From a virus: a stretch of DNA of 64,000 nucleotides. A program made the translations under genes and the position numbers. The stretch is from the IMG/VR virus record IMGVR_UViG_3300029784_000200. One strand, written 5' to 3'. The notes below the pieces were generated by a model. The model was not told the origin of the DNA. It saw only the letters and a program-made list of their open reading frames with translations, and searched no databases. Shown piece by piece: positions 15,557 through 57,998 of the stretch; positions within the stretch are counted from its first letter, which is position 1, and the number at the start of each line of letters is the position of its first letter.

Positions 15557-16255
15557 CGTCTGACTCCTTCCCGTTCGCATAGTGCCTGCCTGCGCTTCCT
15601 GTTTAGTTAACCATTCCTGCTTTTTTAAGTAGACCGCCCGCAGTTTATCGCAAATCTGTATTTTGTTTTCCAGACTGCGTCGCATTTTCTGATAAGCGGA
15701 ATCATCGAACCGATCACCCAGGTAGTCATAAACCATTGCAGCATACGGAGCCAGTCTGTTGCCGCATGCACGGTATAGTTTCTGGTACTTCCGGGTCATT
15801 TCCTCTGCTCTTGCGATAATCAAAGAACAATAAAGCTGTGGGTCTTGCTCATACAGTCCACAAAAGCTGACTATCTTTTCCCCATCTGGCGTATCGATCT
15901 GCATGCCAGCGTTCGTAACTGCTAATGCGTCTGCTTCTTCTTGGCTCAGCCATACTGCGGATTTTTTTGTTGTTTCCCCGATTGGTGTTGGTACAATTCC
16001 ATAAAACTTCAAGATTCCGGCGCAGGCTTCCTCATAGTTTAAGGAATTCTGAATCCGGAATAGTTCTACTTTGTTTGCCGACAGTCCGCAGCTCCAGCAT
16101 TTCCAATATTCCCCATCCCTGGAAGTCATGCCGGAACCATTTTTACCGGAACCGGATCCACAGTTGGGACAGATATAGCTTTTTCTGTTTCTCGCCAACG
16201 GTAAAAATCCGGGTTCCAGATACCGGATCGCTGTCATATCATATTTTGTCATCAC
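15551..16255 (-). CDS. zinc-ribbon protein (234 aa; CPNCGSG...CWSCG, primase-type CHC2-like Zn finger)
   Basis: Cys4 motif near the N-terminus; CCATACTGT element about 45 nt upstream (reverse complement at 16286). Confidence 0.5.
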   Translation of the reverse strand: MMTKYDMTAIRYLEPGFLPLARNRKSYICPNCGSGSGKNGSGMTSRDGEYWKCWSCGLSANKVELFRIQNSLNYEEACAGILKFYGIVPTPIGETTKKSAVWLSQEEADALAVTNAGMQIDTPDGEKIVSFCGLYEQDPQLYCSLIIARAEEMTRKYQKLYRACGNRLAPYAAMVYDYLGDRFDDSAYQKMRRSLENKIQICDKLRAVYLKKQEWLTKQEAQAGTMRTGRSQTK

Positions 16256-16365
16256 ACATTTTCTCCTTTCGCAATTTCTTATCGTTTTGCCTACAGTATG
16301 GATTCCGGTACCGCAAATTTCAAGCCAAAAAATTCAGGGCTAAAAACCCAGTAAAACAATTTCCG

Positions 16366-16487
16366 AAGTCTATATTACGTATTAGAGTGTCGCAAATTTT
16401 TTATACATGGACGAGAACCTCGGTAAAATAATGATTGTAGGGGGGGTGTACAAAAAATGGAAGTTTATATTACGTATTAGAGTGTCG
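16366..16487. repeat. direct repeat of 25 bp TATATTACGTATTAGAGTGTCGCAA (2 copies, 97 bp apart)
   Basis: Exact copies at 16366-16390 and 16463-16487 inside the 1.4-kb noncoding tract. Confidence 0.7.
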
Positions 16488-17242
16488 CAAGTGCTTTGCG
16501 GAATTTTTAAATGAGGTGAAAAAAGAGGGTTAAAAATCGGAAAAAGCTTTTTCGCTCTCTCCGATTTTCGTAGGTAGCGGATGAGATTTCAGTTTGTGAA
16601 GGAAACAATCTGGATAACAGAAACATAAAAAATGAAAAAATAGAGAAGTCAAAGACGCGAGGATAAATCCATTTTCTTTTATCGCGTTCTTAGGTAGCGG
16701 CAGATGCTTTCGCTTGGACGTGAGCCTGTAAAACAGTGTCCGCATAAGAAACCGTCCTACGCCCCCCTGCCTTCATTTCCACCGTAAAATCCTGGAAATC
16801 CAATAAAATCCCGATAAAAATCACGAAAATTAAATGATCGTACCGCCTGACGTTCAGTTGAAAACTCCTTATTCCATAAGGATCCGGCAGAAAATGCAGA
16901 AAAAAATCCAGAAAGGAATGCTGGAACACATTCTATCCATCAGAGTGATAGAGAAAAGACGTTCAGACGTACCTTTGAAGCTCCGCCGACGCAAATTCCC
17001 GTCCTTCGGCGCTGGAAAGATAGTCGATTCAGGCGTCAGGGAGAGTAGTGCGGTTATACGTCCCCCTGTATTTTCCTCTTTCCATCCATTTTCCGCTGCC
17101 GTTTAACGATATCCGCGTATCGAAATCATGGAAAAGAGTACGTATTTCGGACTTTTCCGTAGGAAAACACCACGAATACCCATAGATCTGCAAAAGAGAA
17201 GAAAAAAGATGCAGAAAAAAGAAAAGAAAGCCCCAGCCTGAT

Positions 17243-17478
17243 ATCCTTGCGGATAAGAGATAGTGGCACCCTTAAGGGTGACGCAAAAAGACGTCCTCCG
17301 GTACTCCTTGCGGATAAGAGATAGTGGCACCCTTAAGGGTGACGCAAAAAGACGTCCTCCGGTACTCCTTGCGGATAAGAGATAGTGGCACCCTTAAGGG
17401 TGACGCAAAAAGACGTCCTCCGGTACTCCTTGCGGATAAGAGATAGTGGCACCCTTAAGGGTGACGCAAAAAGACGTC
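17243..17478. repeat. four tandem, near-perfect 61-bp repeats, each with the 14-bp palindrome CACCCTTAAGGGTG
   Basis: Unit TCCTTGCGGATAAGAGATAGTGGCACCCTTAAGGGTGACGCAAAAAGACGTCCTCCGGTAC at 17243, 17304, 17365 and 17426 (last copy diverges at its 3' end). 61 bp is not a multiple of 3. Confidence 0.9.
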
Positions 17479-17600
17479 TTTCCGTACCGCTCACAAATAT
17501 CCTCCATATCTTCTGCAAAACAAAAAATAGAAAGGTCACACATACTGAAAGCGTTTTCCCGGAAATACCGCAGGACGTATCTTTAAAAACGGCCCGCCCA

Positions 17601-33461: not shown

Positions 33462-33484
33462 AAGATTCCTCCTTTGTGTAAGTT

Positions 33485-33536
33485 CATAATACTTCCAGTA
33501 TGTCAAAGTTGCAACCAGGACATTTTTGCGGATAAC
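33485..33536 (-). promoter_or_regulatory. element promoter box - N20 - CATACTGG (copy 6), helicase promoter
   Basis: Reverse complement of 33514-33536 is CCAAAAAGTGTTATCCGCAAAAA; CCAGTATG at 33485-33492. Confidence 0.55.
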
Positions 33537-33651
33537 ACTTTTTGGCAAAAATCAGCAAAGCGTTCTGATTATGCTATCAGCTTTTCTTGTCCGCAGATAC
33601 ATACTGAAAGTGTTATAAAAATATAAGACATTGAGAAATGGAGGAAAATTG

Positions 33652-37294: not shown

Positions 37295-37864
37295 ATGACA
37301 AATGACATAATGGTGAGAGAAACAGCAAAACTGCTTTCCTGGCTGCGTGCGTGGGATGAACAGACATACCAGCACAGTCTGCGTACCGCAGGGTACGCAT
37401 TCCAGATTGCCAGCCAGATGCATATGGCGTGGCAGGACCGCAGGGATCTTCTGGTCGCCGCCACACTCCATGACATCGGAAAACGGACCATCCCGCAAAG
37501 GGTCTTACGAAAGTCAGGAAAACTGACAGATGAGGAATACAGGCTCATCCGCGAACACGCGGAAGCCGGCTCCCGCATCTTACGGGCCCACGGATTCCCG
37601 GAGAAAATCTGTGATGCGGTCCGCGATCACCATGAACAGCCGGACGGCAATGGGTACCGCGGATGCGCACAACCGGCCAGGTACGCGGATATCATCCGCG
37701 TGGCAGATTGTCTGGACGTGATGTTCTCCGGCCGCAGTTACCAAAAGCCGAAGACCAGGGAACAGGTTGAGGAAGATTTAAAGAAAAACGCCGGAAAAAG
37801 CATGGCAAAGCCCGCTGTAGACGCGGCGCTCCGTACCTATTTTGTATCGGCTGCCCGAGCATAA
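37295..37864 (+). CDS. HD-GYP-type HD-domain phosphohydrolase (189 aa)
   Basis: LHDIGK and DHHEQPDGNGYR motifs. Confidence 0.55.
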   Translation: MTNDIMVRETAKLLSWLRAWDEQTYQHSLRTAGYAFQIASQMHMAWQDRRDLLVAATLHDIGKRTIPQRVLRKSGKLTDEEYRLIREHAEAGSRILRAHGFPEKICDAVRDHHEQPDGNGYRGCAQPARYADIIRVADCLDVMFSGRSYQKPKTREQVEEDLKKNAGKSMAKPAVDAALRTYFVSAARA

Positions 37865-41504: not shown

Positions 41505-43856
41505 ATGCAAAAGAAAAGAGAAAGAAAGGAAAGAACACAAGTGGGGAAATCATTATTCATCGCGGAGAAGCCGTCCGTGGCAATGGAATTTGCCAAGGCG
41601 CTTGACATGAAACCCGGGGAAAAGAAGAACGGATACCTGGAAGATGAACGCTACATCGTAACATGGTGTGTTGGACATCTGGTCACCTTATCCTACCCGG
41701 ATAAATATGACGAGAGATTAAAGAAATGGGAGCTGGAAACGCTGCCGTTCATCCCGAAGGAATATAAATATGAAGTGATTCCGGAGGTAGCAGCCCAGTA
41801 TAAAGTGGTAAAGACCCTCTTAAACCGGAAAGACGTGGACCGGATCTATTATTCCGGGGACTCTGCGCGCGAAGGAGAGTACATCCAGCGCCTCGTCCGT
41901 CAGATGGCGGGACATAATAAGGAAGCAAAAGAGTTCCGCGTCTGGATCGACTCCCAGACCAGGGAAGAGATCCGAAACGGTATCAAGAATGCCCATGAAC
42001 TGGCTTATTACGACAAATTATCGGATTCCGCCTATGCACGGGCGATCGAGGACTACCTGGTCGGCATTGACTTTTCCAGGGTCTTATCCATCAAATACGC
42101 AAATATGGTCTCCGGCGCGGCAGGGATCCGTTATACGCCGATTGCGGTCGGACGCGTCATGTCCTGTGTCCTTGGCATGATCGTGGAACGGGAACGCCAG
42201 ATCCGGAGTACGACCGTTATCCCATATTACGGGATCCGGTTAAACCTTTCCGATACGGTAAGCGCAGACTGGAAGATCCGGGACGGGTCCGCGTATGCAG
42301 CAGATCCGGACCGCTATAATGACGCCGGTCTCTTAAAAAAGGAAAAGACGGAAGCACTGATCAAGGATTTAAGCGCAAACGGCACCACCAGGTTTATAAA
42401 AAGGGAGAAAAAACAGGAGTCCAAGGCGGCGCCCCTGCTCTTTAACCTCGCCGAGCTCCAGGCGGAATGCACCAAACAGTTTCACATCAGCCCAGCAGAC
42501 ACCTTAAAGATCGCGCAGACCTTATACGAGGGAAAGCTAACCACATACCCGAGAACAGATGCCAGGGTCCTGACCACGGCGATCTGCAAAGTCTTCGATA
42601 AAAATATCCGCGGCCTCCAGAGCGTGGAGGAAGTGGCGGCATTTTCAAAGGAAGTACTGGACCAGGGCATGCAGGAGCCGCTCCGGCAAAAGACGACCAA
42701 ATACGTGGATGACTCCAAGGTATCTGACCATTATGCGATCATACCGACCGGTGAAGGATTTGAGACGTTAAAGAAACTTTCCCAGCTGGAAAAGGACGTT
42801 TATCTGCTGATCTGCAGACGTTTCTTAAGCATCTTTTATCCGCCCGCTGTTTACGACAAGCTGTCCTTTACCTGTAAGACGGCCAAGGAAGAATTTGACG
42901 GTTCCTACACAGCTGTTGCAAAGGAAGGATACTTAAAGGTAGCCGGAAGGAAAGATGACAAGGACGCAGCAGTTGCAATCACGGCGGTCATGAACATGCC
43001 GGAAGAAGTCTCACCGGTCACGTTCGACTTAAAAGAAGGAAAAAGCAAACCGCCAAAACGCTATACGACCGGTTCCATGATCCTTGCGATGGAAAATGCC
43101 GGAAAACTCATCGAGGATGAAGCACTCCGGGAACAAATTAAGGGATCCGGCATCGGTACGTCAGCAACCAGGGCGGAAACGATCTCAAAACTGGAGCGAC
43201 TGCAGTATATTGCCGTCAATAAAAAAACACAGACGATTACACCGGATAAACTCGGCGAGATGGTGTATGATGTCCTCCGCTTAAGTGTTCCGACCATCTT
43301 AAAACCGGACTATACGGCATCCTGGGAAACAGGCCTTCAGGGGATCGCGGATGGAAAATACACCAAACAGATCTATCTGGACAAGATCTATGCCTACATC
43401 GCAAAAAATACAGAAAATATGAAGGCGGAAAACCATGCGGAAGAGATCACAAAGAATATTCAGACCTTAAAAAAGGTATATCCGGACATCGGAAAAGCGC
43501 AGCCGGCAGATGCATCCGGCGCGGGTAATACTGCAGCCGGTACCTGCCCGGTATGCGGGAAACCATTAAGGATCAGCGAAAAGAGTATTTACTGCAGTGG
43601 GTACCAGGACGGATGTAAATTTACGATCTGGCGGGAGATCAGCGGCAAGAAATTGACCGATAAGCAGCTGGAGTCTTTAGCGAAGGGCATCAAAAAGAAT
43701 GGATCCGGCGGATACCAGTCCGCGCCGTCCGCGAAGATCTCCGGATTCAAGTCCAAAAAGGGGACGTCCTTTGACGCAAAACTGCAGGTAACCGGGATCG
43801 TAAACGGAAAGGTAGAAATTAAATTCGTGTTTGAGAATGCGCCGAAAAAGCCATAA
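41505..43856 (+). CDS. topB: DNA topoisomerase III (type IA) with C-terminal zinc ribbons
   Basis: KSLFIAEKPSVA / YIVTWCVGHLV (TOPRIM); C-terminal CPVCGKPLRISEKSIYCSGYQDGCKFTIW. The true start may be the GTG at 41541. Confidence 0.85.
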   Translation: MQKKRERKERTQVGKSLFIAEKPSVAMEFAKALDMKPGEKKNGYLEDERYIVTWCVGHLVTLSYPDKYDERLKKWELETLPFIPKEYKYEVIPEVAAQYKVVKTLLNRKDVDRIYYSGDSAREGEYIQRLVRQMAGHNKEAKEFRVWIDSQTREEIRNGIKNAHELAYYDKLSDSAYARAIEDYLVGIDFSRVLSIKYANMVSGAAGIRYTPIAVGRVMSCVLGMIVERERQIRSTTVIPYYGIRLNLSDTVSADWKIRDGSAYAADPDRYNDAGLLKKEKTEALIKDLSANGTTRFIKREKKQESKAAPLLFNLAELQAECTKQFHISPADTLKIAQTLYEGKLTTYPRTDARVLTTAICKVFDKNIRGLQSVEEVAAFSKEVLDQGMQEPLRQKTTKYVDDSKVSDHYAIIPTGEGFETLKKLSQLEKDVYLLICRRFLSIFYPPAVYDKLSFTCKTAKEEFDGSYTAVAKEGYLKVAGRKDDKDAAVAITAVMNMPEEVSPVTFDLKEGKSKPPKRYTTGSMILAMENAGKLIEDEALREQIKGSGIGTSATRAETISKLERLQYIAVNKKTQTITPDKLGEMVYDVLRLSVPTILKPDYTASWETGLQGIADGKYTKQIYLDKIYAYIAKNTENMKAENHAEEITKNIQTLKKVYPDIGKAQPADASGAGNTAAGTCPVCGKPLRISEKSIYCSGYQDGCKFTIWREISGKKLTDKQLESLAKGIKKNGSGGYQSAPSAKISGFKSKKGTSFDAKLQVTGIVNGKVEIKFVFENAPKKP

Positions 43857-43932
43857 GCGGTACGAAAATGCGATGGCATCTTGGAATGTTCCGCAAGAAG
43901 GTCAAAAGACACGTATCATTCCTGACCAATAT

Positions 43933-43986
43933 TGACCAAAAAGCGTTATCCGCAAAAATACAACTGTCTAAAATGATACATACTGG
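43933..43986 (+). promoter_or_regulatory. CRISPR leader promoter: TTGACC-box (CCAAAAAGCGTTATCCGCAAAAA) - N20 - CATACTGG (copy 9)
   Basis: Box at 43937-43959; CATACTGG at 43979-43986; 75 nt upstream of the first repeat. Confidence 0.6.
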
Positions 43987-44059
43987 TTCTGTTACGGAAG
44001 TCCAAGACTAAGGGAAGCAACGGCTTGCTAAGCATGGAAATCTCTATGAGGGATTTAGT

Positions 44060-44393
44060 ATTTGCCCCGTACACACGGGGATGAACCCAGGTTGTAGGAT
44101 CGGTGAGTGTCTTGGGATTCATTTGCCCCGTATACGCGGGGATGAACCCACACAACCATTTTTGCCACAAATCGGCGCAACATCTGCCCCGTATACACGG
44201 GGATGGGCCCAGAAAATCTCAGTCGCCACTTACGAAAATCGGATTTGTCCCGTATACGCGGGGATGAACCTACATTTCAATGTATGGATAAGACAGCCTT
44301 AGGATCTGCCCCCGTATACGCGGGGGATGAACCCTTGTTTCGCAGAGCAAATACGGGAACTCAGCCATCTGCCCCGTACACACGGGGATGAAT
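44060..44393 (+). CRISPR. CRISPR array 1a: 6 repeats of ~28 nt (ATYTGCCCCGTAYACRCGGGGATGAACC), ~33-nt spacers; type I-E-like repeat
   Basis: Repeats at 44060, 44121, 44183, 44242, 44305 and 44366. Palindromic CCCCG..CGGGG stem and ATGAACC 3' handle, as in I-E repeats. Confidence 0.9.
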
Positions 44394-44503
44394 CTATCCC
44401 ATACTGCCTACGCGATCATCAGTAGGAATCAACCATGCATGCACAGGGGCAGGCTCGCCGCAACGCTACAAACCTACAATATATCATTTCGGACCAATAT
44501 TGG

Positions 44504-44554
44504 CCAAAAAGCGTTATCCGCAAAAATACAACTGTCTAAAATGATACATACTGG
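44504..44554 (+). promoter_or_regulatory. duplicated leader promoter (copy 10)
   Basis: Box at 44504-44526; CATACTGG at 44547-44554. Confidence 0.55.
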
Positions 44555-44622
44555 TTCTGTTGCGGAAGTCCAAGACAAAAAAACGGCTTGCTAACCACAG
44601 GAATCTCCTTGAGGGATTTAGT

Positions 44623-45077
44623 ATCTGCCCTGTATACACGGGGATGAACCTAACCTCATGTGCAGCTTGCTATATTTTTCCAAATCTGCCCCGTATGCAC
44701 GGGGCTGAGCCATTCCCGGATGGTTTTGTAGTAGGTGTTGATGCATTCGAGCCCCGTACATGCGGGGATGAACCATCGTGCTCGGGGATGCAGGGCTTTT
44801 CCAACGGGTCTGCCCCGTATGCACGGGGATGAACCTATTAAAAATGAGCCAGTAATGCGGGAAGTGCCATTTGCTCCGTACACACGGGGATGAACCAGAG
44901 AGTAGTCAAGAGAATAATCAAATCTATATTCTTCCCGTACACACGGGGATGAATCATGGAGACGCAAATCTACAATGAGAGATCCCGGGTCTACCCCGTA
45001 TACACGGGGATGAGCCTATCACTTCGACATTATTCGCGCCACAACACAAATCCACTCCGTATGCACGAGAATGAGTT
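44623..45077 (+). CRISPR. CRISPR array 1b: 8 repeats (last two degenerate)
   Basis: Same repeat family. Spacer ATTCCCGGATGGTTTTGTAGTAGGTGTTGATGCATTCGAG at ~44713 is nearly duplicated in array 1c. Confidence 0.9.
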
Positions 45078-45121
45078 CGCTACGCCGCAATTGCCAAAAT
45101 ATGTATCATTTCTGACCAATA

Positions 45122-45175
45122 TTGACCAAAAAGTGTTATCCGCAAAAATGCGACTATCTAAAATGGTACATACTG
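45122..45175 (+). promoter_or_regulatory. duplicated leader promoter (copy 11)
   Basis: Box at 45126-45148; CATACTGG at 45168-45175. Confidence 0.55.
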
Positions 45176-45249
45176 GTTTTGTTGCGAAAGTCCAAGACGA
45201 AGGGAAGCAATGACTTGCCAAGCATGGAAATTTCCATGAGAGATTTAGT

Positions 45250-45524
45250 ATTTGCCCCATGCACACGGGGATGAACCTAAGCATAAGTGGCACCCTTGAT
45301 AAGGATATGGCATCCGCCCCGTATACACGGGGATGAACCGGCTTTTCACAATTATTGAGATGTTACACGAGGATCTACCCCGTATACACGGGGATGAGCC
45401 ATTCCCGGATGGTTTTGTAGTAGGTATTGACGCATTCGCCCCCGTATACACGGGGATGAACCTTGTGTGTAAGGGTTGCGAGAAAAGAATTATCGGATCT
45501 GCCCCGTATATACGGGGACGAGTT
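45250..45524 (+). CRISPR. CRISPR array 1c: 5 repeats (terminal repeat degenerate)
   Basis: Same repeat family; shares a spacer with 1b. Confidence 0.9.
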
Positions 45525-45572
45525 CGTTGCACCGCAATTGTCAAAAAATATGTTTCAATTCTGGATTAACAT

Positions 45573-45626
45573 TGACCAAAAAGTGTTATCCGCAAAAATA
45601 CATCTCAAAGAAATAATACATACTGA
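45573..45626 (+). promoter_or_regulatory. duplicated leader promoter (copy 12), also the probable cas operon promoter
   Basis: Box at 45577-45599; CATACTGA at 45619-45626. Confidence 0.55.
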
Positions 45627-45699
45627 CCTTGTCGTAGAGATCCAAGATGATAGGAATCAACGATGCGTCAGCCATAGAAAATTCTTTGAGGAATTTAGT

Positions 45700-45788
45700 A
45701 TCCGCCCCGTGCGTACGGGGATGAACCTGATCGGACGCTTCGGATCGGTCTCACGTAAAAATCCGCCCCGTGCGTACGGGGATGCCCC
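45700..45788 (+). CRISPR. CRISPR array 1d: 2 repeats, directly upstream of cas8e
   Basis: ATCCGCCCCGTGCGTACGGGGATGAACC at 45700 and ATCCGCCCCGTGCGTACGGGGATGCCCC at 45761. Confidence 0.8.
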
Positions 45789-45871
45789 CATAGAAGCACA
45801 AGGATGACAGTTAATAACAGTCTTTTCCATGTACATGGGGAATCAATTATAACAAAAGAAAGGAAAAAATC

Positions 45872-48256
45872 ATGCAGAAACAATTTTGTCTGGTAACAGA
45901 ACCGTGGATCAAAGTGATCGATCTGCAGGGCGAAGTAAAGGAACTCAGCTTAAAGAACGCCTTCGCGCAGGCACATGAAATCCGCTGCCTGGCAGGGGAG
46001 CTGCCGAACCAGGACTTTGCTGTCCTGCGATTTCTGTTAGCCATATTACAGACGGTAATGTACCGGTATGAACCGGACGGCACTGAGAAACTACTGACCG
46101 AACCGGAAGACGCGCTCAGACGGTGGAAAACAGTATGGGAAGATAAGAAATTGCCGGAAACAGTTGTAGACAAATACCTGGAGGAGTGGAAGGAACGCTT
46201 CTACTTATTCCACCCGGACCATCCGTTTTATCAGGTTCCGGGAATCGAAGGAATGGGTACCTCCATCTCACCCGGCAGGATGATCGCGGCAGTCGGGGAA
46301 AGCGACAATAAGGCAAGGATCTTCGGTACATACTCTACCCGCGGAAAGAACGGGATTACGGATGCAGAACTTACCAGATGGATTTTACATTTCCAGGCAT
46401 ATGATACAAAATCCACCAAGATCATAAGAGGCCCCGTTGACCCGGAAAGAGGGAAACTGCATCCAAGGATCGCATGGTGCGGAAATCTCGGCGCCGTATA
46501 CCTGGAAGGCGACAACCTGTTTGAAACGCTGATGTTAAATCTGGTACTGCTTCGCACGGATATTACAGAAGATACCTGCTTTGCCAAACCGAAACCATCA
46601 TGGGAGAGGGACGTATTAAAACCCATTGAGGATAACATCCGAACAGATATCGATAACCAGGCGGAACTGTTATCCATGCCGTGCCGCTGGCTTTTCGTCA
46701 GCCGGCAACAGGATACCTTTTCAGCATCCTCTGTCGTTGGTGAAAACCTCGATCCAAAAAACGCCTTCCTGGAGCAGATGACCTTATGGAGGCCTGTTTA
46801 CGTGAAGGCCAAGGAAGGGGCTGTCACGGATGGGTTCATTCCAAGCCTTTCTGATTACACCAGGGAGAGCATCCCGGACCGGACCGATTTTGGACGCGGT
46901 ATGTGGAACCGGTTCAGCGCCATCACATCGGAACAGGAAGATGCGAGAAAACCCGGCATTATCCTCTGGATGCAGAAGCTGACCGACCGCGGCATCCTCT
47001 CTGAAGAAAAGGCAGTGGCCTTAAAAGGGATCGACACGGTATACCACAAACAGCAGGGAAGCATGGTCATGGACGTAAAGGGAAGCTCCATTGACATGAG
47101 GCTGCTGTTTTTAGGAACGCGCGGCAAGGTATGGAGAGAGATGTTAGACCGCGTCATCCGGCTGACCAACCAGGTGGCGGAAATCTATGCAACCTTTTAT
47201 ATGGAGACATGCAGCGCAATCGGACATTCCTATAACGGCAATACCTTCGGAACCAGATCGGAAGGGGCCGAAATGTTCTATGGAGCTGTGGATGCGCCAT
47301 TAAGGAAATGGCTTTCCGAAATCAACGACCGCGTGACAACACCGGATGAACCGGAAATCACCCCGGAAATGTTTGAAAGAAAATGGGAAGCAGTTGCGTT
47401 CCGCACTCTGGACCGCTGCGCGAAAGAGCGGATCCGCTCCTGTGGCATGGCAGGGATCCGGATCATAGAGTCCGAGACGGCAACATCCGGATATACAGGG
47501 CTTGCATCATGTTACGATAAGCTCTGGTTTACCATAAGAAAGGTCACGGATCATGCACTGGATGAGATCTACTGGAATATGGATCCGCACTCCGACCGCG
47601 CGGATGAGGTGTGTGATTACGTAAGGGAAAAGATCCTTCGGTATCGGAGGACTGCGGATGATCCTAAGACGGTACGGGAACTGGCGCTGCTGCGCAGGAG
47701 CGTTGGACAGGATCCGGAAAACGCATCCAAAATTGCGCAGACTGTTTTACAGGACTTTGAGGAAACCTACCGCGCGGCAACCGGATACACGCGTGCAGAA
47801 CGCGCGGTCTTTGCGGCACTTACCTTATATGCAAGAAGTTTCAAGGATAAAAACGAGGACGGACACACGGAGGAAGCCTCTTTCGGATGCGCCGTAAGAC
47901 TTGCCGCCACGGACAAAGAAACCGGAAAAGAGGACGCAGACTGCTTAAAGCAGATCGTCCGGTACATGAACCGCATCCTCTCGGCGGATTACCTGCAGAC
48001 GCTGGTGCACCATGCGGACAGCCTGTTTCGGGTACAGAAAGGCCGGATGCCAGGATTCGATTACGGCTGGTTTGCAAAGGATCTATTCCTCTGGCAGATC
48101 CGGGAATACAATCCGTCCGTAAAGCTTGCATGGTCTGCGGATTTTCTCCGCAGAAGGAAAACGGCAAAGCTGGATGCAGGAATGCAGGAACAGGAAGAAA
48201 CCGGACCGGATCCGGGTACCAAGAAAACCAAAAAGGCAAGAAAAACAAAAAAATAA
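45872..48256 (+). CDS. cas8e-cas11: Cas8e (Cse1/CasA) fused in-frame to Cas11 (Cse2/CasB) - large+small subunit fusion, 794 aa
   Basis: N-terminal LVTEPWIKV and FYLFHPDHPFYQ parallel CasA LIDNWIPV and FYLNHAEHPFMQ. The C-terminal ~190 aa (…LKQIVRYMNRILSADYLQTLVHHADSLF…DYGWFAKDLFLWQ…VKLAWSADF) parallel the CasB helical pattern (…LDWPLMARMLTWWGK…LLEDF). Confidence 0.75.
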   Translation: MQKQFCLVTEPWIKVIDLQGEVKELSLKNAFAQAHEIRCLAGELPNQDFAVLRFLLAILQTVMYRYEPDGTEKLLTEPEDALRRWKTVWEDKKLPETVVDKYLEEWKERFYLFHPDHPFYQVPGIEGMGTSISPGRMIAAVGESDNKARIFGTYSTRGKNGITDAELTRWILHFQAYDTKSTKIIRGPVDPERGKLHPRIAWCGNLGAVYLEGDNLFETLMLNLVLLRTDITEDTCFAKPKPSWERDVLKPIEDNIRTDIDNQAELLSMPCRWLFVSRQQDTFSASSVVGENLDPKNAFLEQMTLWRPVYVKAKEGAVTDGFIPSLSDYTRESIPDRTDFGRGMWNRFSAITSEQEDARKPGIILWMQKLTDRGILSEEKAVALKGIDTVYHKQQGSMVMDVKGSSIDMRLLFLGTRGKVWREMLDRVIRLTNQVAEIYATFYMETCSAIGHSYNGNTFGTRSEGAEMFYGAVDAPLRKWLSEINDRVTTPDEPEITPEMFERKWEAVAFRTLDRCAKERIRSCGMAGIRIIESETATSGYTGLASCYDKLWFTIRKVTDHALDEIYWNMDPHSDRADEVCDYVREKILRYRRTADDPKTVRELALLRRSVGQDPENASKIAQTVLQDFEETYRAATGYTRAERAVFAALTLYARSFKDKNEDGHTEEASFGCAVRLAATDKETGKEDADCLKQIVRYMNRILSADYLQTLVHHADSLFRVQKGRMPGFDYGWFAKDLFLWQIREYNPSVKLAWSADFLRRRKTAKLDAGMQEQEETGPDPGTKKTKKARKTKK

Positions 48257-48289: not shown

Positions 48290-49525
48290 ATGAATACCAA
48301 AGGACTTTTTATGGCTGTACATGTCATCCAGAGCTACCCGAGCAACAATTTAAACAGAGGAGAAGACGGATCACCGAAAAGCTGCATTTTCGGCGGCGTC
48401 AGAAGAAGCCGCGTCTCCAGTCAGTGCATCAAGCGTAACGCACGCTTAGCCATGTACGACGTCATTTCTGAAAATGATGAAAACGGCATGGGTATCCGCA
48501 CAAAGACCATGCCGGCCATCATCGCAGCGTTTCTGGAAAAATGGGCCGAGTCAGCGGAAAATGTAACATGGACAGACGATGAGATGGAGAAACAGAAATA
48601 CCATGAAGCGGCAAAAGAATTCGACATCCGTGACGTATCCCATGCCCTGACCGCGGTCGGCATGCAGATTGACGCGAAAAAGAACCATACCTTAAAAAGT
48701 GTTTACTGTACGAACGTGAAGCAGTGTGTGGCATTTGCAAAAACGATGCTGGAGATCGGAAGCAAGCGTGCAGGAGAAGATAAGGACGGTAACTTAAAGT
48801 TAAATCCGTACGATACAAAAACAGAACTTCCGGCCCTGGACGACGCATTGGATTCCTCGATTTCCCTGGACATCATGATGTTCGGAAGAATGCAGGCAGG
48901 AAGACCCATCCATAACGTGGAAGCCTGCATCCAGGTAGGACATGAGTTCTCTACGCATCGCGCGGAAGAAGAATTTGACTACTTCACTGCCGTGGATGAT
49001 GCAAAAGACATGTTAAAGGAGCAGGGCTCCGCGCATCTGGATACCCAGGAGTTCACCTCCGCAACCATGTACCGTTACAGCAGTGTGGATCTTGGCGCCA
49101 TGTACCAGGCCATGAAGAACAACGGTTCCGATATGGGCCTGGCCATGTTAGCAAAGGAGTGGGTACGTGCTTTTGCATTGGCAGCGCCGACCGGAAAACA
49201 GAATTCCTTCGCAGCGACCACCCTGCCGGTCTACGTTTTTGTAGAGTTCCGCAATGACGCACCGGTAAGCTTTGCGAACGCTTTTGAAAAAGCGGTAGAA
49301 GCCGGAACAGACGGATATGAGGGCGCATCCGTAAAAGCGTTCGAGGAACGTGTCAGACGCTCTGATGCAATCGGATGGCTTCATGCACCGGTCGCAAGAT
49401 TTTTAGTTAGCGAACAGGCATCTTCCCTGCAGGACTGCACCCAGCCGAACTTCAATGCTTTGCTGGACCATGTCGAGGAAACCGTAAAAGATGCGGTATC
49501 CGGTATGGAAAAGGAGCGTTCATGA
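48290..49525 (+). CDS. cas7e: Cas7e (Cse4/CasC) Cascade backbone subunit
   Basis: FGGVRRSRVSSQCIKR, FDYFTAVDD...EQGSAHLDTQEFTSATMYRY and ANAFEKAVEAG are collinear with E. coli CasC; RBS AAAGGAGAAAAATTATG. Confidence 0.9.
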   Translation: MNTKGLFMAVHVIQSYPSNNLNRGEDGSPKSCIFGGVRRSRVSSQCIKRNARLAMYDVISENDENGMGIRTKTMPAIIAAFLEKWAESAENVTWTDDEMEKQKYHEAAKEFDIRDVSHALTAVGMQIDAKKNHTLKSVYCTNVKQCVAFAKTMLEIGSKRAGEDKDGNLKLNPYDTKTELPALDDALDSSISLDIMMFGRMQAGRPIHNVEACIQVGHEFSTHRAEEEFDYFTAVDDAKDMLKEQGSAHLDTQEFTSATMYRYSSVDLGAMYQAMKNNGSDMGLAMLAKEWVRAFALAAPTGKQNSFAATTLPVYVFVEFRNDAPVSFANAFEKAVEAGTDGYEGASVKAFEERVRRSDAIGWLHAPVARFLVSEQASSLQDCTQPNFNALLDHVEETVKDAVSGMEKERS

Positions 49526-50262
49526 GTACCCTGTTATTCCGTCTCGCCGCGCCGATGCAGGCGTGGGGGACGGAACCGAGGTTCGACAAATGGCTCCGTA
49601 CGGGCATGGAGCCAAGTAAAAGCGGAGTGATCGGCATGGTTGCTTCCGCCATGGGGATCGACCGGACGGACGATGAAGCACTCCAAAACCTGGTAAAACG
49701 CTTACGGTTCGGCGTCTGCGTGGACCGGGAGGGAACCGTCATTACGGACTATCATGCGACCCGCGTGGTCCCATATCCGGAATGCAGCTACAGGGATCTT
49801 TTTTCCGACAATATCGTGATACGCGGAAAGAAGATCCCGGACACGGCCATTTCCAAATATGACTATAAAAAGTATTACTTATCCGATGCGGCGTTCACCG
49901 TTGGACTGGAGTGCAAGGATGACTCTCTGTTACATACCATCCTGGAAGCACTGCGGCACCCAAAACGAATGCTGTACCTTGGACGGAAATCCTGTCCACT
50001 TATGGAAGAACTGGATGGTGTCATTGTAAAGAAAGCCGTGCTGCCGGCATTAAAGGAACACGCCGAAGCCAAGGCAGATGGACGGTACCATACCTGCAGG
50101 ATCATCTATGACGCGGAAAAGGGAGAACGCGGGACACTGGTAAACGATGAGCCGGTTTCATTCAATGCCCATAAAAAAGTCTGGGCTCCCCGCATGGCAG
50201 CAGAGACCATGGTGGAGATATTCCCACAGTCCGAACAGCACGACCCATTTGCATTTGTATAA
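49522..50262 (+). CDS. cas5e: Cas5e (CasD)
   Basis: MSTLLFRLAAPMQAWGTEPRF and YLGRKSCPL parallel CasD LAGPMQAWGQPTFEG and YLGRRSCPL; ATGA overlap with cas7e. Confidence 0.9.
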   Translation: MSTLLFRLAAPMQAWGTEPRFDKWLRTGMEPSKSGVIGMVASAMGIDRTDDEALQNLVKRLRFGVCVDREGTVITDYHATRVVPYPECSYRDLFSDNIVIRGKKIPDTAISKYDYKKYYLSDAAFTVGLECKDDSLLHTILEALRHPKRMLYLGRKSCPLMEELDGVIVKKAVLPALKEHAEAKADGRYHTCRIIYDAEKGERGTLVNDEPVSFNAHKKVWAPRMAAETMVEIFPQSEQHDPFAFV

Positions 50263-50297: not shown

Positions 50298-50936
50298 ATG
50301 TATTACTTAACCAGGATCGAACTGGATCCGTATAAAAAACTAACACAGCTGGCTTTAAAAAACGCCAACATGATCCATGGAACCATTGAAAAGGTCTTTG
50401 GAAACGAAGCGGAACGGAAGCTCTGGCGTATCGACAGCCTGCGTGGCAGACGGTATCTGATGATCGTCAGCCGGACGCTGCCGGATTTTACACCGTTACT
50501 TGCACAGTTTGCGCCGGACGGCGCCAAGAGCCAGTCAAAATCTTATGACGCCTTTCTGGAAAGCATCAAAGACGGAAGCCAGTGGAACTTTAAGCTTTGC
50601 GGGGTACCGCTCGTGTGCAGGAAGACAGAAAGCAGCCCGAACGGGAAGCGGTTCCCGCTCTTGAAGCCGGAGGAACAGATGGAGTGGCTTATAAAGAAGG
50701 GAAATCTCCACGGATTCACGGTAAATCCGGAACACATCCGGATCACGGATACCGGCCCGTCCAAGCTTTCAAAAGGCGCAGGAGAAGACCATTACGAATT
50801 CCGAATCCGGAAAGTAATATTTGACGGTATCCTGACCGTGACGGACCCGGAAAAATTCCGGGATGCCATGGTAAACGGAATCGGCAAGGAGCGGGCATTC
50901 GGAGGTGGTATGATCACGGTGGTACCGCGCCCGTAG
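50298..50936 (+). CDS. cas6e: Cas6e (CasE) pre-crRNA endoribonuclease
   Basis: MYYLTRIELDPYKK...HGTIEKVFG and C-terminal GIGKERAFGGGMITVVP parallel CasE (…GIGPAKSMGCGLLSLAPL). Confidence 0.85.
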   Translation: MYYLTRIELDPYKKLTQLALKNANMIHGTIEKVFGNEAERKLWRIDSLRGRRYLMIVSRTLPDFTPLLAQFAPDGAKSQSKSYDAFLESIKDGSQWNFKLCGVPLVCRKTESSPNGKRFPLLKPEEQMEWLIKKGNLHGFTVNPEHIRITDTGPSKLSKGAGEDHYEFRIRKVIFDGILTVTDPEKFRDAMVNGIGKERAFGGGMITVVPRP

Positions 50937-52581: not shown

Positions 52582-52866
52582 ATGAACAGACAGGAGTTAG
52601 TAAACGCAATCGCAGCAAACAGTGGGATCAGCAAAAAAGACATCGACGAAGTTTTAAAAAACTTTGTGACCGTTGTCATGGATGACGTAGCCGCAGGAAA
52701 CAAAGTGCAGCTGATCGGTTTTGGTACCTTTGAAAGCACAACCAGAGCTGCACGCGAGATGCGTAACCCGAGAACCGGTGAAGTGAGCATGTATCCGGAG
52801 TCCCGTAACGCCAAATTCAAACCGTCCAAAGTATTCAAGGACAAGGTCAATAACTCACGACTGTAG
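52582..52866 (+). CDS. hup: HU/IHF-family DNA-binding protein
   Basis: MNRQELVNAIAANSGISKKDIDEVL...RNPRTGE...SKVFKD, canonical HU fold sequence. Confidence 0.85.
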   Translation: MNRQELVNAIAANSGISKKDIDEVLKNFVTVVMDDVAAGNKVQLIGFGTFESTTRAAREMRNPRTGEVSMYPESRNAKFKPSKVFKDKVNNSRL

Positions 52867-52899
52867 TCGCAAGCTTGAAGCGATTATGTTTTCATTACC

Positions 52900-57392: not shown

Positions 57393-57484
57393 AATTTTCC
57401 TCTTTTCTTTCGTGATTAGATTATTTGTAGTTACAAATGACCGGTTACAGTCATTTTTAGCGGGATATAACCGCGCCCTTAACC

Positions 57485-57874
57485 GGGCATCCCCGTACAT
57501 ACGGGGCTAACTAATATGAGCGAGCCAACATGGTATGTCGGGGTGCATCCCCGCGTATACGGGGCAGATTGGCAAAAATTTTCCAGTCCACTCGATAATC
57601 ATCGGTGCATCCCCGTGCGCACGGGGCAGATAACAGATTTCTTACGAGGCACACTTCCTGTCTTGGCTCATCCCCGTGTATACGGGGCAGATTTTTGTCG
57701 ATACCGATAGGCCCTGAACGATGTGGATTCATCCCCGCGCGCGGGGGCAGATTCAATTCCCGGATCATGAGTCATGCCACCATTCGGTTCATCCCCGTGC
57801 ATACGGGGCAGATGCAATTTTGCTTTCACCTAACTGCTGTACGTACGGCTCATCCCCGTACATACGGGGCGGAT
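57485..57874 (-). CRISPR. CRISPR array 2: 7 repeats of the same I-E-like family, inverted relative to array 1
   Basis: Plus-strand GGCTCATCCCCGTACATACGGGGCAGAT is the reverse complement of ATCTGCCCCGTATGTACGGGGATGAGCC. Repeats at ~57485, 57542, 57603, 57664, 57725, 57786 and 57847. Confidence 0.9.
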
Positions 57875-57946
57875 ACTAAATCCTCAAAAAAGTCCTCTGG
57901 GTCGATGGATAAGCGGTTTCTTTTGTCCCGGCTTCCTACGATAAAA

Positions 57947-57998
57947 TCAGTATGTATCATTTCTTTTAGATATATTTTTGCGGATAACACTTTTTGGT
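57947..57998 (-). promoter_or_regulatory. leader promoter of array 2: element box - N20 - CATACTGA (copy 14)
   Basis: Reverse complement of 57976-57998 is the 23-bp box; TCAGTATG at 57947-57954; leader end GAGGATTTAGTAT matches the array 1 leaders. Confidence 0.6.

What the first reader, a model, noticed from the sequence alone, without database searches (positions are those of the whole stretch)
43921..45800. Four tandem leader+array modules, each with its own copy of the element promoter, plus a fifth inverted array
Array 1 is not one array. The ~135-nt leader is repeated four times (43921, 44491, 45111, 45571), each followed by 6, 8, 5 and 2 repeats. The leader carries the CCAAAAAGYGTTATCCGCAAAAA box, CATACTGG and ...GAGGGATTTAGTAT. 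Terminal repeats of each sub-array are degenerate and followed by the same 30-nt junction (GTTCGYWRCRCCGCAATTGYCAAAA). One spacer (ATTCCCGGATGGTTTTGTAGTAGGTRTTGAYGCATTCG) is present in both 1b and 1c, showing duplication of whole leader-array blocks. Array 2 (57485-57874) has the same leader in inverted orientation. Multiple independently promoted crRNA units are atypical for I-E, which usually has one leader per array and needs Cas1-Cas2 for growth; none is present here.
Basis: seen in the sequence. Interest (0 to 1): 0.6.

Follow-up and report, generated by a model that had tools for sequence, protein, structure and literature searches.

The report
Multi-leader CRISPR arrays on gut plasmid
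A large plasmid-like element from the human gut carries a CRISPR system without its cutting and spacer-capturing enzymes, whose guide arrays are split into five small units that each have a copy of the element's own promoter and whose guides match sibling plasmids, so it looks like a programmable weapon for plasmid-versus-plasmid competition.

Summary
Between topoisomerase III and the cas genes (43857-45871) lie four tandem leader+array modules, with 7, 8, 5 and 3 repeats counting degenerate terminal ones. A fifth array with the same leader lies inverted at 57484-57997. The 2015-nt block is identical in four independent metagenome assemblies, and multi-leader arrays occur in at least eight further contigs, so it is not an assembly artefact.

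The cas genes encode a type I-E Cascade with fused Cse1-Cse2, Cas7e, Cas5e and Cas6e. No Cas3, Cas1 or Cas2 was found in the window or in about 0.8 Mb of related fragments.

Each leader has three parts: the element-wide promoter motif (a 23-nt box, 20 nt, then CATACTG; 15 copies in the window), an array-specific 75 nt, and a conserved leader-repeat junction.

Comparison with relatives shows conserved trailer-end spacers, unique leader-end spacers and identical leader-proximal repeats at several different leaders. This points to canonical spacer acquisition, presumably by Cas1-Cas2 supplied in trans.

Seventeen spacer families match sibling elements and 15 of these sites carry a 5'-AA PAM. None matches the phage or plasmid databases.

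Best reading: a plasmid-competition system, probably acting by binding alone. It is a new variant of a known kind.

The parts
43857..43920 (+). Spacer between the topoisomerase III stop codon and leader 1a. It contains a remnant of the 'terminal repeat + junction' sequence seen before the other leaders.
   Evidence: Sequence comparison of the four pre-leader junctions.
43921..44059 (+). Leader 1a: box 43936-43958, CATACTG 43979-43985, leader-repeat junction ...GAGGGATTTAGT.
44060..44455 (+). Array 1a: 7 repeats (the last degenerate) and 6 spacers. Spacer S3 (44210-44242) matches sibling elements 33/33. Spacer S6 matches a promoter region of another sibling 28/33.
44491..44622 (+). Leader 1b: box 44504-44526, CATACTG 44547-44553.
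44623..45077 (+). Array 1b: 8 repeats (the last degenerate) and 7 spacers. Spacer S2 (44712-44746) is the family-wide spacer that is also in 1c.
45111..45249 (+). Leader 1c: box 45126-45148, CATACTG 45169-45175.
45250..45524 (+). Array 1c: 5 repeats (the last degenerate) and 4 spacers. S2 matches L085 32/33. S1 matches a variant of the 61-nt tandem repeat over 20/20 of its 5' part. S3 is a copy of 1b_S2.
45571..45699 (+). Leader 1d: box 45576-45598, CATACTG 45619-45625. It is a divergent leader type and the only box upstream of the cas operon.
45700..45847 (+). Array 1d: 2 repeats plus a degenerate third, and 2 spacers. It ends 24 nt before the cse1 ATG.
   Evidence: The same module is found in L022 and a variant of it in L114.
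45872..48256 (+). Fused cse1-cse2 (cas8e-cas11e), 794 aa.
   Evidence: Pfam PF09481 5.9e-72 and PF09485 1.7e-16. NCBIfam. PADLOC Cas8e and Cas11e. The exact protein is found on 23 or more contigs.
48290..49525 (+). cas7e
49522..50262 (+). cas5e
50298..50936 (+). cas6e, the pre-crRNA endoribonuclease.
57875..57997 (-). Leader of array 2: box 57975-57997, CATACTG 57948-57954.
57484..57874 (-). Array 2: 7 repeats and 6 spacers. It lies between its promoter and ssb (true ATG at 57392), and there is no second box before ssb. The trailer spacers are shared with L070.
15879..17487 (.). The region of this element that siblings' spacers target, and whose homologues this element's own spacers target. 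L081's spacer matches 33/33 at 16809-16841 with an AA PAM. The element's own decayed copy of the 1a_S3 target is at 16561-16593 (25/33, with seed mismatches). The 61-nt tandem repeats at 17244-17487 each carry the palindrome CACCCTTAAGGGTG.

Best explanation
**What it is.** The locus is the guide-RNA store of a nuclease-free, adaptation-free type I-E Cascade with fused Cse1-Cse2, Cas7e, Cas5e and Cas6e. It is carried by a large plasmid-like element of the human gut that has ParA/ParB, a Rep-like gene and iterons; related contigs reach 180-365 kb.

**The leaders.** The store is split into five short arrays. Each leader consists of the element's standard bipartite promoter motif (23-nt box, 20 nt, CATACT), about 75 nt of array-specific sequence, and a conserved leader-repeat junction (TTGAGGRATTTAGTAT). 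I propose that each leader does two jobs.
1. It starts transcription. With no terminators between modules, transcription is cumulative along the block and runs on into the cas operon, which has no promoter of its own here. In the same way array 2 runs into ssb. Cas6e then cuts the transcript at the repeat hairpins into 61-nt crRNAs.
2. It is a separate entry port where a type I-E Cas1-Cas2 supplied in trans, by the host or a co-resident element, inserts new spacers by duplicating the leader-proximal repeat.

**What the guides do.** They direct Cascade to AAB-flanked sites in sibling plasmids of the same family. These sites are mostly in variable, non-coding or regulatory regions next to the replication genes. 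Without Cas3, binding most likely blocks transcription or replication, giving CRISPR-based exclusion of competitors as in plasmid type IV systems. The element's own copies of such sites carry seed mismatches.

**Shown versus inferred.**
- Shown: the anatomy, its conservation and reproducibility, the acquisition signature at several leaders, the PAM, and the identity of the targets.
- Inferred: promoter activity of each leader, the source of Cas1-Cas2, and binding-only interference.
For: **Anatomy and significance.**

**Cascade genes and missing enzymes.**
- The genes are I-E by Pfam, NCBIfam and PADLOC.
- tblastn with chromosomal I-E Cas1, Cas2 and Cas3 found none of them in the window plus about 0.8 Mb of family fragments.
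- The SF2 helicase is RadD-like. The HD protein is HDIG-type and scores 18.9 bits on the Cas3'' model, below its 43.45 cut-off.

**Reproducibility.**
- The array block is identical in 4 samples and shows a one-unit deletion in a fifth.
- Multi-leader arrays occur in L022, L028, L043, L081, L092, L106, L108 and L114.

**Leader conservation.** In 23 distinct leaders the box, CATACTG and the leader-repeat junction are nearly invariant, while the middle part falls into 3-4 sequence types.

**Acquisition signature.**
- Trailer ends are conserved and leader ends are unique. W 1c reads [21. 0 7 2t] against L114 [.... 0 7 2t]. W array 2 reads [... 17-20] against L070 [. 17-20]. W 1d is the same as the last module of L022.
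- Leader-proximal repeats are identical around unique spacers in L070, in L092 module 2 (4 identical repeats), in L043 module 3, in L114 modules 1 and 2, and in L081 module 3.

**PAM.** AA lies directly 5' of 15 of 17 protospacers against a background of 8.1% (P=5e-15), and the first spacer base is never A.

**Targets.**
- All 17 matched spacer families hit box-bearing sibling elements.
- 25 window spacers and 78 relatives' spacer families gave nothing in 2.3 Gb of phage and 7.3 Gb of plasmid records.

**Self-avoidance.** The window's own copy of the 1a_S3 target matches 25/33, with four mismatches in the PAM-proximal seed.

**Promoter role.**
- All 15 boxes point at the next gene or array, and several directly follow terminator-like hairpins.
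- There is no box between 1d and cse1 or between array 2 and ssb here, whereas L002, L003 and L004 have a box before cse1, and L002 and L003 have one before ssb.

**Repeat hairpin.** It is kept in 97.6% of cells across 91 repeat variants.

**Precedent.** Plasmid systems that lack adaptation modules and use host I-E Cas1-Cas2 in trans to fight other plasmids are described in PMC9071438, PMC7038947 and PMC11656645.
Against: - No transcript data are available, so promoter activity of any leader is inferred from position, orientation and conservation only.
- The factor that reads the box is unknown. The box does not fit a sigma-A promoter in distant relatives.
- Only 64 kb of an element of at least 180 kb was seen. 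cas1, cas2 or cas3 could lie elsewhere on it, and the family fragments searched are a biased sample near boxes.
- The target search was biased too. The only family-rich database was the one built from box hits. Host genomes could not be searched, and IMG/VR was searched for only one spacer. About 80% of the spacers have no known target.
- In the window itself the leader-proximal repeats all differ, so this particular copy has not acquired spacers recently.
- The repeat population is very heterogeneous (91 variants in 129 repeats), which means acquisition is rare relative to mutation, or that recombination contributes much.
- A selective advantage of several leaders over one is not demonstrated.
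Confidence: 0.6

Rival explanations
1. The arrays and Cascade work as described, but having several leaders has no function of its own. The modules would be neutral by-products of unequal recombination between leader copies, or between array 1 and array 2 of sister plasmids, and only one promoter or entry site matters.
For: - Block rearrangements clearly occur. Spacers 3 and 0 are adjacent in L092 and L114 but separated by a leader block in the window and in L043, and spacer cl0 is duplicated in the window and in L114.
- The number of modules varies from 1 to 4 among relatives.
- More distant relatives have arrays with no leader box at all. L002 has an array directly after topoisomerase III and another directly after cas6e.
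- Other fusion-clade lineages embed arrays inside the cas operon.
Against: - The box and CATACTG are exact in every leader copy, while the rest of the leader has diverged by up to 40%.
- Leader types A, B and D are old paralogues kept side by side in many contigs.
- Fresh acquisitions are seen at first, middle and last modules and at array 2, so several leaders are in use.
Confidence: 0.2
2. Interference is not binding-only. The plasmid's Cascade would recruit a Cas3 supplied in trans by a host type I-E system and so degrade the competitor DNA.
For: - The PAM and repeat architecture are I-E-like.
- Trans use of host adaptation proteins is already required by the data.
- Chromosomal I-E systems with Cas3 are common in gut Clostridia (L133 and L134).
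Against: - Cse1 is only 33-38% identical to the nearest chromosomal Cse1 proteins and is fused to Cse2.
- Every lineage of the fusion clade with enough flanking sequence (L002, L003, L135, L141) lacks cas3 nearby. This suggests long-term function without it.
- Protospacers concentrate in promoter and non-coding control regions, which fits silencing. It is also compatible with acquisition bias.
Confidence: 0.25
3. The element supplies its own split Cas3: the HD protein at 37295-37864 together with the SF2 helicase at 31164-33548.
For: - The HD protein has weak matches to Cas3 HD models (PADLOC 24 bits, E=9e-6; tblastn E=0.005).
- It is syntenic in L002 and L003.
- The helicase has a faint 'possible alternative Cas3' hit of 17.5 bits.
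Against: - The HD protein matches generic HD, HDIG and HD_5 models far better (E=1e-20) and is below the Cas3'' cut-off.
- The helicase is RadD/YejH-like (E=4.7e-42).
- The two genes are 4 kb apart on opposite strands and 8-14 kb from the cas operon.
Confidence: 0.05
4. The locus is a decaying relic: degenerate repeats and missing cas1, cas2 and cas3 would mean a dead system.
For: - The repeats are very heterogeneous (91 variants in 129 copies).
- Terminal repeats are degenerate.
- The adaptation and nuclease genes are missing.
Against: - All four Cascade ORFs are intact.
- The fusion protein's 90%-identity cluster holds 585 member sequences from public metagenome assemblies, and the window's exact protein was found on 23 or more contigs.
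- The hairpin stem is preserved in 97.6% of cells, with changes mostly to G-U.
- Relatives show recent acquisitions, and newly acquired spacers match siblings perfectly (L092 spacer 33/33).
Confidence: 0.05
5. The repeated leaders are an assembly artefact, from expanded or mis-joined repeats.
For: - Close relatives assembled from short reads break exactly at the box (L005 and L006 start at the leader).
- This shows that assemblers struggle at this locus.
Against: - The leader copies differ by 11-32%, so they can be told apart.
- The 2015-nt block is identical in four assemblies from different samples and pipelines.
- Multi-leader junctions such as '2t | leader | 15 6t' recur in L022, L114 and the window.
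Confidence: 0.02

Closest known systems
Canonical type I-E CRISPR-Cas (Escherichia coli K-12 type; chromosomal examples here are L133 and L134)
   Same: - Cas8e, Cas11e, Cas7e, Cas5e and Cas6e are all present.
- The repeats are 28/29 nt with a GC hairpin, the spacers 32/33 nt and the period 61 nt.
- The PAM lies 5' of the protospacer and is of the AAG type (here AA+T/C/G), with its last base carried into the array.
- Acquisition is at the leader end by repeat duplication.
   Different: - There is no cas3, cas1 or cas2.
- Cse1 and Cse2 are fused.
- Five short arrays each have their own leader, four of them in tandem.
- The leaders are built on an element-specific promoter.
- The arrays lie in the 5' untranslated part of the cas operon and of ssb.
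- The repeats are highly heterogeneous, whereas the chromosomal array of L133 has uniform repeats.
- The system is carried by a plasmid-like element and aimed at its siblings.
Plasmid-borne type IV-A3 systems (Pinilla-Redondo 2020, PMC7038947; Benz 2024, as cited in PMC11656645)
   Same: - They are encoded on large plasmids.
- They have no adaptation module and no target-cutting nuclease.
- Their spacers target other plasmids.
- They are reported to acquire spacers in trans with host I-E Cas1-Cas2.
- They act by crRNA-guided repression.
   Different: - The effector here is a true I-E Cascade, not Csf proteins, and there is no DinG helicase.
- PADLOC's best hits are I-E, with only weak type IV Cas6 hits.
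- The multi-leader layout is not described for type IV in the papers read.
Plasmid CRISPR-Cas loci in general (Pinilla-Redondo 2022, PMC9071438)
   Same: - I-E is among the common plasmid subtypes.
- Only 36% of plasmid systems have adaptation modules, and trans use of host machinery is proposed.
   Different: - This family is absent from PLSDB.
- That survey reports that most CRISPR-carrying plasmids have a single array (36% have more than one).
- The passages read do not mention tandem leaders.
[quoted passage not shown]
   Same: - They are very short arrays of one or two spacers carried by a mobile element.
- They are aimed at close relatives of that element, giving exclusion of competitors.
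   Different: - Those mini-arrays rely fully on the host effector.
- Here the element brings its own Cascade and Cas6e, and many modules are longer.
Cas3-less type I Cascades of CRISPR-associated transposons (I-F3, I-B and others; PMC11656645)
   Same: - A Cascade that has lost Cas3 and adaptation genes.
- It is kept by a mobile element for DNA binding only.
   Different: No TnsA, TnsB, TnsC or TniQ genes are in the window or next to the relatives' cas genes. The spacers match sibling elements rather than attachment sites.
Neisseria type II-C arrays with a promoter in every repeat (from my own knowledge, not checked here)
   Same: Several transcription starts inside one CRISPR block, so that guide expression does not depend on one distant promoter.
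   Different: There the promoter is embedded in each repeat and there is still one leader for acquisition. Here whole leaders, promoter plus integration site, are repeated.

Membership tests
Type I-E CRISPR-Cas | The Cascade subunits Cas8e (Cse1), Cas11e (Cse2), Cas7e, Cas5e and Cas6e | tested here: met
   Pfam, NCBIfam and PADLOC hits are all above the curated cut-offs. Cse1 and Cse2 lie in one 794-aa ORF.
Type I-E CRISPR-Cas | Cas3 helicase-nuclease, the signature protein of type I | tested here: not met
   No Cas3 model hit was found among the window ORFs. tblastn with two chromosomal I-E Cas3 proteins against the window plus about 0.8 Mb of family fragments gave only a weak HD hit (E=0.005). 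The rest of the element, which is at least 180 kb, was not seen.
Type I-E CRISPR-Cas | Cas1-Cas2 adaptation module next to the array | tested here: not met
   There were no Pfam or NCBIfam hits and no tblastn hit for Cas1. The only Cas2 query hit is to its fused DnaQ domain, in L055.
Type I-E CRISPR-Cas | 28/29-nt repeats with a conserved stem-loop, 32/33-nt spacers, and a 61-nt period | tested here: met
   The stem is paired in 97.6% of cells over 91 repeat variants.
Type I-E CRISPR-Cas | AAG-type PAM 5' of the protospacer | tested here: met
   AA precedes 15 of 17 protospacers (P=5e-15), and the next base is T, C or G.
Type I-E CRISPR-Cas | Cas6e-processed 61-nt crRNAs and R-loop formation by Cascade | not testable with these tools
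   This needs RNA sequencing and biochemistry.
Type IV CRISPR-Cas | Csf1/Csf2/Csf3 effector, with DinG in subtype IV-A | tested here: not met
   PADLOC assigns all four proteins to I-E. Only weak partial type IV Cas6 hits were seen (E=1.7e-9 against 1.4e-44 for Cas6e).
CRISPR-associated transposon (CAST) | Tn7-like tnsA/tnsB/tnsC/tniQ genes linked to the Cascade genes | tested here: not met
   None was found among the ORFs of the window or in the gene tables of L002, L003, L135 and L141.
CRISPR used in competition between mobile elements (a functional class) | Spacers match relatives of the carrier element rather than phages | tested here: met
   17 spacer families match box-bearing sibling elements, and none of about 100 families matches the phage or plasmid databases. 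The search space was biased.
CRISPR used in competition between mobile elements (a functional class) | The targeted competitor is excluded or silenced in vivo | not testable with these tools
   This needs competition experiments.
Large low-copy plasmid | Partition genes, a replication initiator with iterons, and no phage structural genes | tested here: met
   - ParA 6465-7649, ParB 7652-8881 and a Rep-like HTH gene 9358-10443 are present.
- The 10476-12566 region holds iteron-like repeats.
- A TraG-like coupling protein is present in relative L002.
- There are no PHROG structural hits.
- One relative is listed in IMG/VR as viral.

The most novel reading that the evidence does not exclude
A widespread family of giant human-gut plasmids runs a programmable incompatibility system.
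- A Cas3-free I-E Cascade is guided to the replication and control regions of sibling plasmids.
- Its guide store is deliberately split into several leader-array cassettes. These serve as parallel entry ports for a borrowed Cas1-Cas2 and as stacked promoters.
- crRNA output, Cascade synthesis and SSB synthesis are thereby all wired to the plasmid's own transcription signal, a 23-nt box read by an unidentified, possibly plasmid-encoded, factor.
Probability: 0.35. Interest if true: 0.75.

Novelty: new variant of a known kind. Interest (0 to 1): 0.6.

Why it matters
Plasmid-against-plasmid CRISPR warfare has so far been tied mainly to type IV and V-M systems. This locus suggests that a stripped-down type I-E Cascade has been recruited for the same purpose in a common but unnamed family of very large gut plasmids.

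Three questions become directly testable.
- Can a CRISPR locus use several leaders at once for spacer uptake?
- Does placing arrays in the 5' untranslated region of the cas operon couple guide and effector production?
- Can a Cas3-less I-E Cascade exclude replicons by binding alone?

The spacer-target pairs also give a ready map of which plasmid variants exclude which. They point to a short, hypervariable control region next to the replication genes as the battleground.

A compact, nuclease-free Cascade with a relaxed AAB PAM and a fused large-small subunit could also be of practical interest for gene silencing.

Tried and rejected
- **Public plasmid and phage records.** Megablast of the array and cas block found nothing. 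A sensitive blastn of the arrays gave only a chance-level I-E repeat hit in Proteus 'plasmid' records.
- **Collection scans with the fusion protein.** IMG/VR gave no relative. The genome collection gave only a canonical, unfused I-E in a Thermacetogenium MAG.
- **Self-targeting.** There is no good match to the window's own sequence. The only notable hit is 25/29 and turned out to be the decayed homologue of a real target in siblings.
- **Terminators between modules.** Only chance-level matches were found.
- **A sigma-A reading of the box** (TTGACC, 16 nt, AAAAAT). I rejected it because the TTGA is not conserved in distant relatives, whereas the box and CATACT are.
- **Covariation in the repeat stem.** It is too conserved to give a significant signal, with only 2 compensatory pairs.
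- **The family-wide spacer cl0.** There is no exact hit in IMG/VR and no hit in the phage or plasmid databases.
- **An internal start for a separate Cse2.** No in-frame start with a ribosome-binding site lies near the Cse2 domain.
- **Literature on duplicated or internal CRISPR leaders.** Nothing relevant was found in the searchable library.
- **Rfam on the target hot spot.** There is no credible RNA family.
- **One parsing artefact.** The apparent 'spacer' L108+_6 is just the next leader, and it was discarded.


Full report
**1. The observation**

Reading 43700-46100 and running the repeat finder shows a 182-nt unit present four times, at 43906, 44474, 45096 and 45546. Each copy is followed by CRISPR repeats with a 61-nt period. 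A Hamming scan with the 28-nt consensus ATCTGCCCCGTATACACGGGGATGAACC, followed by inspection of the two repeats that carry indels, gives this layout:

| Module | Coordinates | Repeats | Spacers |
|---|---|---|---|
| 1a | 44060-44455 | 7, last degenerate | 6 |
| 1b | 44623-45077 | 8, last degenerate | 7 |
| 1c | 45250-45524 | 5, last degenerate | 4 |
| 1d | 45700-45847 | 3, last degenerate | 2 |
| array 2 (minus strand) | 57874-57484 | 7 | 6 |

That makes 25 spacers, mostly 33 nt long.

- The 23-nt box CCAAAAAGYGTTATCCGCAAAAA is exact in all five leaders. It occurs 15 times in the window against none expected.
- CATACTG follows exactly 20 nt after the box in all five leaders.
- From box to first repeat, the leaders are 81-89% identical among 1a, 1b and 1c, and 68-76% identical to 1d and to array 2.
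- Downstream of CATACTG they remain 60-86% alike, whereas other promoters of the window give 44-52%. The leaders therefore share more than the generic promoter.
- The junction after the terminal repeats is shared by 1b and 1c, is diverged after 1a, and has a remnant before leader 1a.
- The shared spacer (1b_S2 = 1c_S3, 2 differences) is real.

**2. Not an artefact**

The window's exact Cse1-Cse2 protein is on at least 23 contigs.
- In four contigs from different samples the 2015 nt between topoisomerase III and cse1 are identical to the window.
- A fifth contig lacks exactly one 61-nt unit, the one holding spacer 1a_S1.
- A metagenome scan with the box brought in 120 human-gut fragments (805 kb with the loci fetched earlier). 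Eight of them hold arrays with two or three leaders and other spacer sets: L022, L028, L043, L081, L092, L106, L108 and L114.
- Junctions such as 'terminal repeat, junction, type-B leader, spacers 15 and 6' recur in the window, L022 and L114.

**3. Context**

- Downstream of module 1d, with only 24 nt and a ribosome-binding site in between, lies a 794-aa fusion of Cse1 and Cse2. It is followed by Cas7e, Cas5e and Cas6e.
- No ORF of the window matches Cas3, Cas1 or Cas2.
- tblastn with Cas1, Cas2 and Cas3 of two chromosomal I-E systems (L133, L134) finds nothing in the window or in the family fragments. The exceptions are a DnaQ-domain hit and a weak HD hit.
- The HD protein (37295-37864) is HDIG-type and scores below the Cas3'' cut-off. 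The helicase (31164-33548) is RadD-like.
- The element carries ParA/ParB, a Rep-like HTH gene, iteron-like repeats, NAD ligase, topoisomerase III, PhoH2, SSB, PARP-like and UvrD-like genes, and no phage structural genes.
- Relatives are syntenic and one has a TraG-like coupling protein.
- Cluster members sit on contigs of up to 365 kb.
- The family is absent from the plasmid and phage collections.

**4. The box is the element's promoter signal**

- All 15 copies point at the next gene or array. Several directly follow hairpin-plus-T-run terminators.
- The spacing from box to CATACT is 19-23 nt, with a mode of 20.
- Box and CATACT are unchanged in L002 and L003, whose Cse1-Cse2 is only 57-59% identical. 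The TTGA in front of the box is not conserved there, so a plain sigma-A reading is doubtful.
- In the window and its close relatives (L005, L006, L136-L140) there is no box between module 1d and cse1. In the window there is also none between array 2 and ssb (true ATG at 57392).
- L002, L003 and L004 do have a box before cse1, and L002 and L003 have one before ssb.
- No convincing terminators separate the modules.
- In this lineage the leader promoters are therefore the only candidates to drive the cas operon and ssb. Transcription should accumulate along the block. This is inference; no RNA data were available.

**5. How the arrays evolve**

Clustering the 148 array intervals parsed from all family arrays (spacers plus terminal junction sequences; 108 clusters) gives ordered maps.

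Trailer ends are conserved and leader ends are unique:
- W 1c reads [21 . 0 7 2t] against L114 module 2 [. . . . 0 7 2t].
- W 1d reads [15 6t], the same as L022, against L114 [. 6t].
- W array 2 reads [. . . 17 18 19 20t] against L070 [. 17 18 19 20t].
- W 1a reads [. . . . 3 16t] against L043 [. 3 16t].

At the sequence level, unique leader-proximal spacers are flanked by identical repeats in L070, in L092 module 2 (four identical repeats), in L043 module 3, in L114 modules 1 and 2, and in L081 module 3. This is the footprint of Cas1-Cas2 integration with duplication of the first repeat. It is seen at first, internal and last modules and at array 2.

Rearrangement also occurs.
- Spacers 3 and 0 are adjacent in L092 and L114. 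A terminal repeat, a leader and one or two spacers lie between them in the window and in L043.
- Spacer 0 is duplicated in the window and in L114.

The window's own leader-proximal repeats all differ, so this copy has not acquired spacers recently. Overall the repeats are very heterogeneous (91 variants among 129), with variation in the loop and handle positions. The stem stays paired in 97.6% of cells.

**6. What the spacers target**

- No window spacer matches the window itself.
- Neither the window arrays nor 78 further spacer families from relatives match 2.3 Gb of phage or 7.3 Gb of plasmid records.
- Against the family fragments, 17 spacer families have protospacers.
- Window examples are 1a_S3 at 33/33 in L009 and L078 (32/33 in L085), 1c_S2 at 32/33 in L085, 1b_S6 at 29/33 in L008 and L080, and 1a_S6 at 28/33 in L008.
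- The 1a_S6 target in L008 lies directly downstream of the box and spans the promoter's CATACTG.
- Relatives in turn hit the window: L081's spacer matches 33/33 at 16809-16841, and L052's matches 31/33 inside the topoisomerase III gene.
- Fifteen of the 17 protospacers are preceded by AA (background 8.1%, P=5e-15). The first base of the 33-nt unit is T, C or G and never A. This is an I-E-like AAB PAM whose last base is carried into the array.
- Nine protospacers fall in a 3.2-kb stretch of L085. That stretch comprises a variable ORF, 61-nt tandem repeats and about 1.3 kb of non-coding DNA directly upstream of the Rep-like gene. Its homologue in the window is 15.9-17.5 kb.
- The window's own copy of the 1a_S3 target matches only 25/33, with four mismatches at the PAM-proximal end, in a region that is otherwise 89% identical.
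- The targets are therefore siblings of the carrier, concentrated where siblings differ from self and where control elements lie.
- Caveat: the only family-rich search space was built from box hits, and host genomes could not be searched.

**7. Mechanism proposed**

- Each leader is a promoter plus an integration site.
- Transcripts run through the downstream modules into cas or ssb.
- Cas6e releases crRNAs.
- Cascade without Cas3 binds AAB-flanked sites in incoming or co-resident sibling plasmids and blocks their transcription or replication.
- New spacers come from a I-E Cas1-Cas2 acting in trans.

This parallels what has been reported for plasmid type IV-A3 systems (PMC7038947; Benz 2024 as cited in PMC11656645). 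It also fits the general lack of adaptation modules on plasmids (PMC9071438).

The main rivals are:
- multiple leaders as neutral recombination products;
- recruitment of a host Cas3;
- an element-encoded split Cas3;
- a relic system;
- an assembly artefact.

The first two remain open and the last three are unlikely, for the reasons given in the rival explanations.

**8. Wider clade**

Other lineages of the Cse1-Cse2 fusion, at 39-58% identity and without the box, also lack cas3, cas1 and cas2 on their contigs.
- They place small arrays inside or around the cas operon. In L135 one array lies between cse1-2 and cas7 and another after cas6. In L141 one lies between cas5 and cas6 and another upstream.
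- In L002 arrays follow topoisomerase III and cas6e directly, without a leader box.
- Operon-embedded, multiple short arrays thus seem to be a hallmark of this Cas3-less fusion clade. The tandem full leaders are the form this takes in the window's lineage.

**9. Verdict**

The locus is a new variant of a known kind: a type I-E derivative without nuclease and adaptation genes, on a mobile element, used against siblings. Its leader architecture is unusual, conserved and apparently functional. Interest is 0.6.

Noticed in passing
window 4176, 12544, 14294, 20587, 30337, 33523, 37910, 41442, 52437, 62448 (plus the five leaders): There is an element-wide bipartite promoter-like signal: a 23-nt invariant box, 19-23 nt, then CATACT. 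It sits in front of nearly every operon and is unchanged in relatives with only 57-59% protein identity. The factor that reads it is unknown. CATACT resembles the -10 of mother-cell sporulation sigma factors (from my own knowledge, untested).
   Followed up: partly
window 22176-23438 (+): A 420-aa ORF resembles only the N-terminal clamp part of RNA polymerase beta' (rpoC positions about 219-405; E=2e-23, far below the full-length cut-off). It might be a stand-alone fragment that interacts with sigma or the polymerase.
   Followed up: no
window 52846-54553 (+): An intact IscB RNA-guided nuclease gene (53072-54553) with its HEARO/omega RNA (52846-53118; Rfam RF02033, 103 bits) is inserted right after an HU-like gene (52582-52866). 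It is absent at this position in L002 and L003.
   Followed up: partly
window 16256-17487: This is a 1.1-kb non-coding region with four perfect 61-nt tandem repeats, each containing the palindrome CACCCTTAAGGGTG, and a 38-nt direct repeat at 16365 and 16460. It is the main CRISPR target hot spot of the family. In L085 it lies directly upstream of the Rep-like gene, so it may be an origin or a centromere-like site.
   Followed up: partly
window 10476-12566: A dense field of 36-38-nt iteron-like repeats (CTCCAAAAGTCCAYRTTTTTAGCGACAAAAAT) is organised in 210-nt units next to the Rep-like HTH gene (9358-10443, minus strand).
   Followed up: no
window 44712-44746 and 45401-45434; L043, L081, L092, L114: The duplicated spacer ATTCCCGGATGGTTTTGTAGTAGGTRTTGAYGC is conserved across the family. 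It is always followed by a repeat with an aberrant 5' end (TCGAG or TTCGC in place of ATCTG). No target was found, so it may have a special role.
   Followed up: partly
window 57392-57997 (-) and 45576-45872 (+): Both arrays that precede genes (array 2 before ssb, module 1d before cse1) sit between the only available promoter and the start codon. Cas6e cleavage at the last, degenerate repeat would therefore define the 5' end of these mRNAs, which could provide a feedback loop.
   Followed up: no
L135 3498-4321 and 7367-7882; L141 4903-5177 and 10229-10575: In other mobile elements that carry the Cse1-Cse2 fusion, arrays lie inside the cas operon (between cse1-2 and cas7, or between cas5 and cas6). 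These arrays also have heterogeneous repeats, and again no cas1, cas2 or cas3 is on the contig.
   Followed up: partly
window 29681-30277 (-), 58210-59535 (+), 14374-15348 (+): A short ORF has a weak Cas12f/TnpB-type zinc-ribbon match. There is also a PARP-like ADP-ribosyltransferase and an ADP-ribosylglycohydrolase. These may be defence or anti-defence cargo of the element.
   Followed up: no
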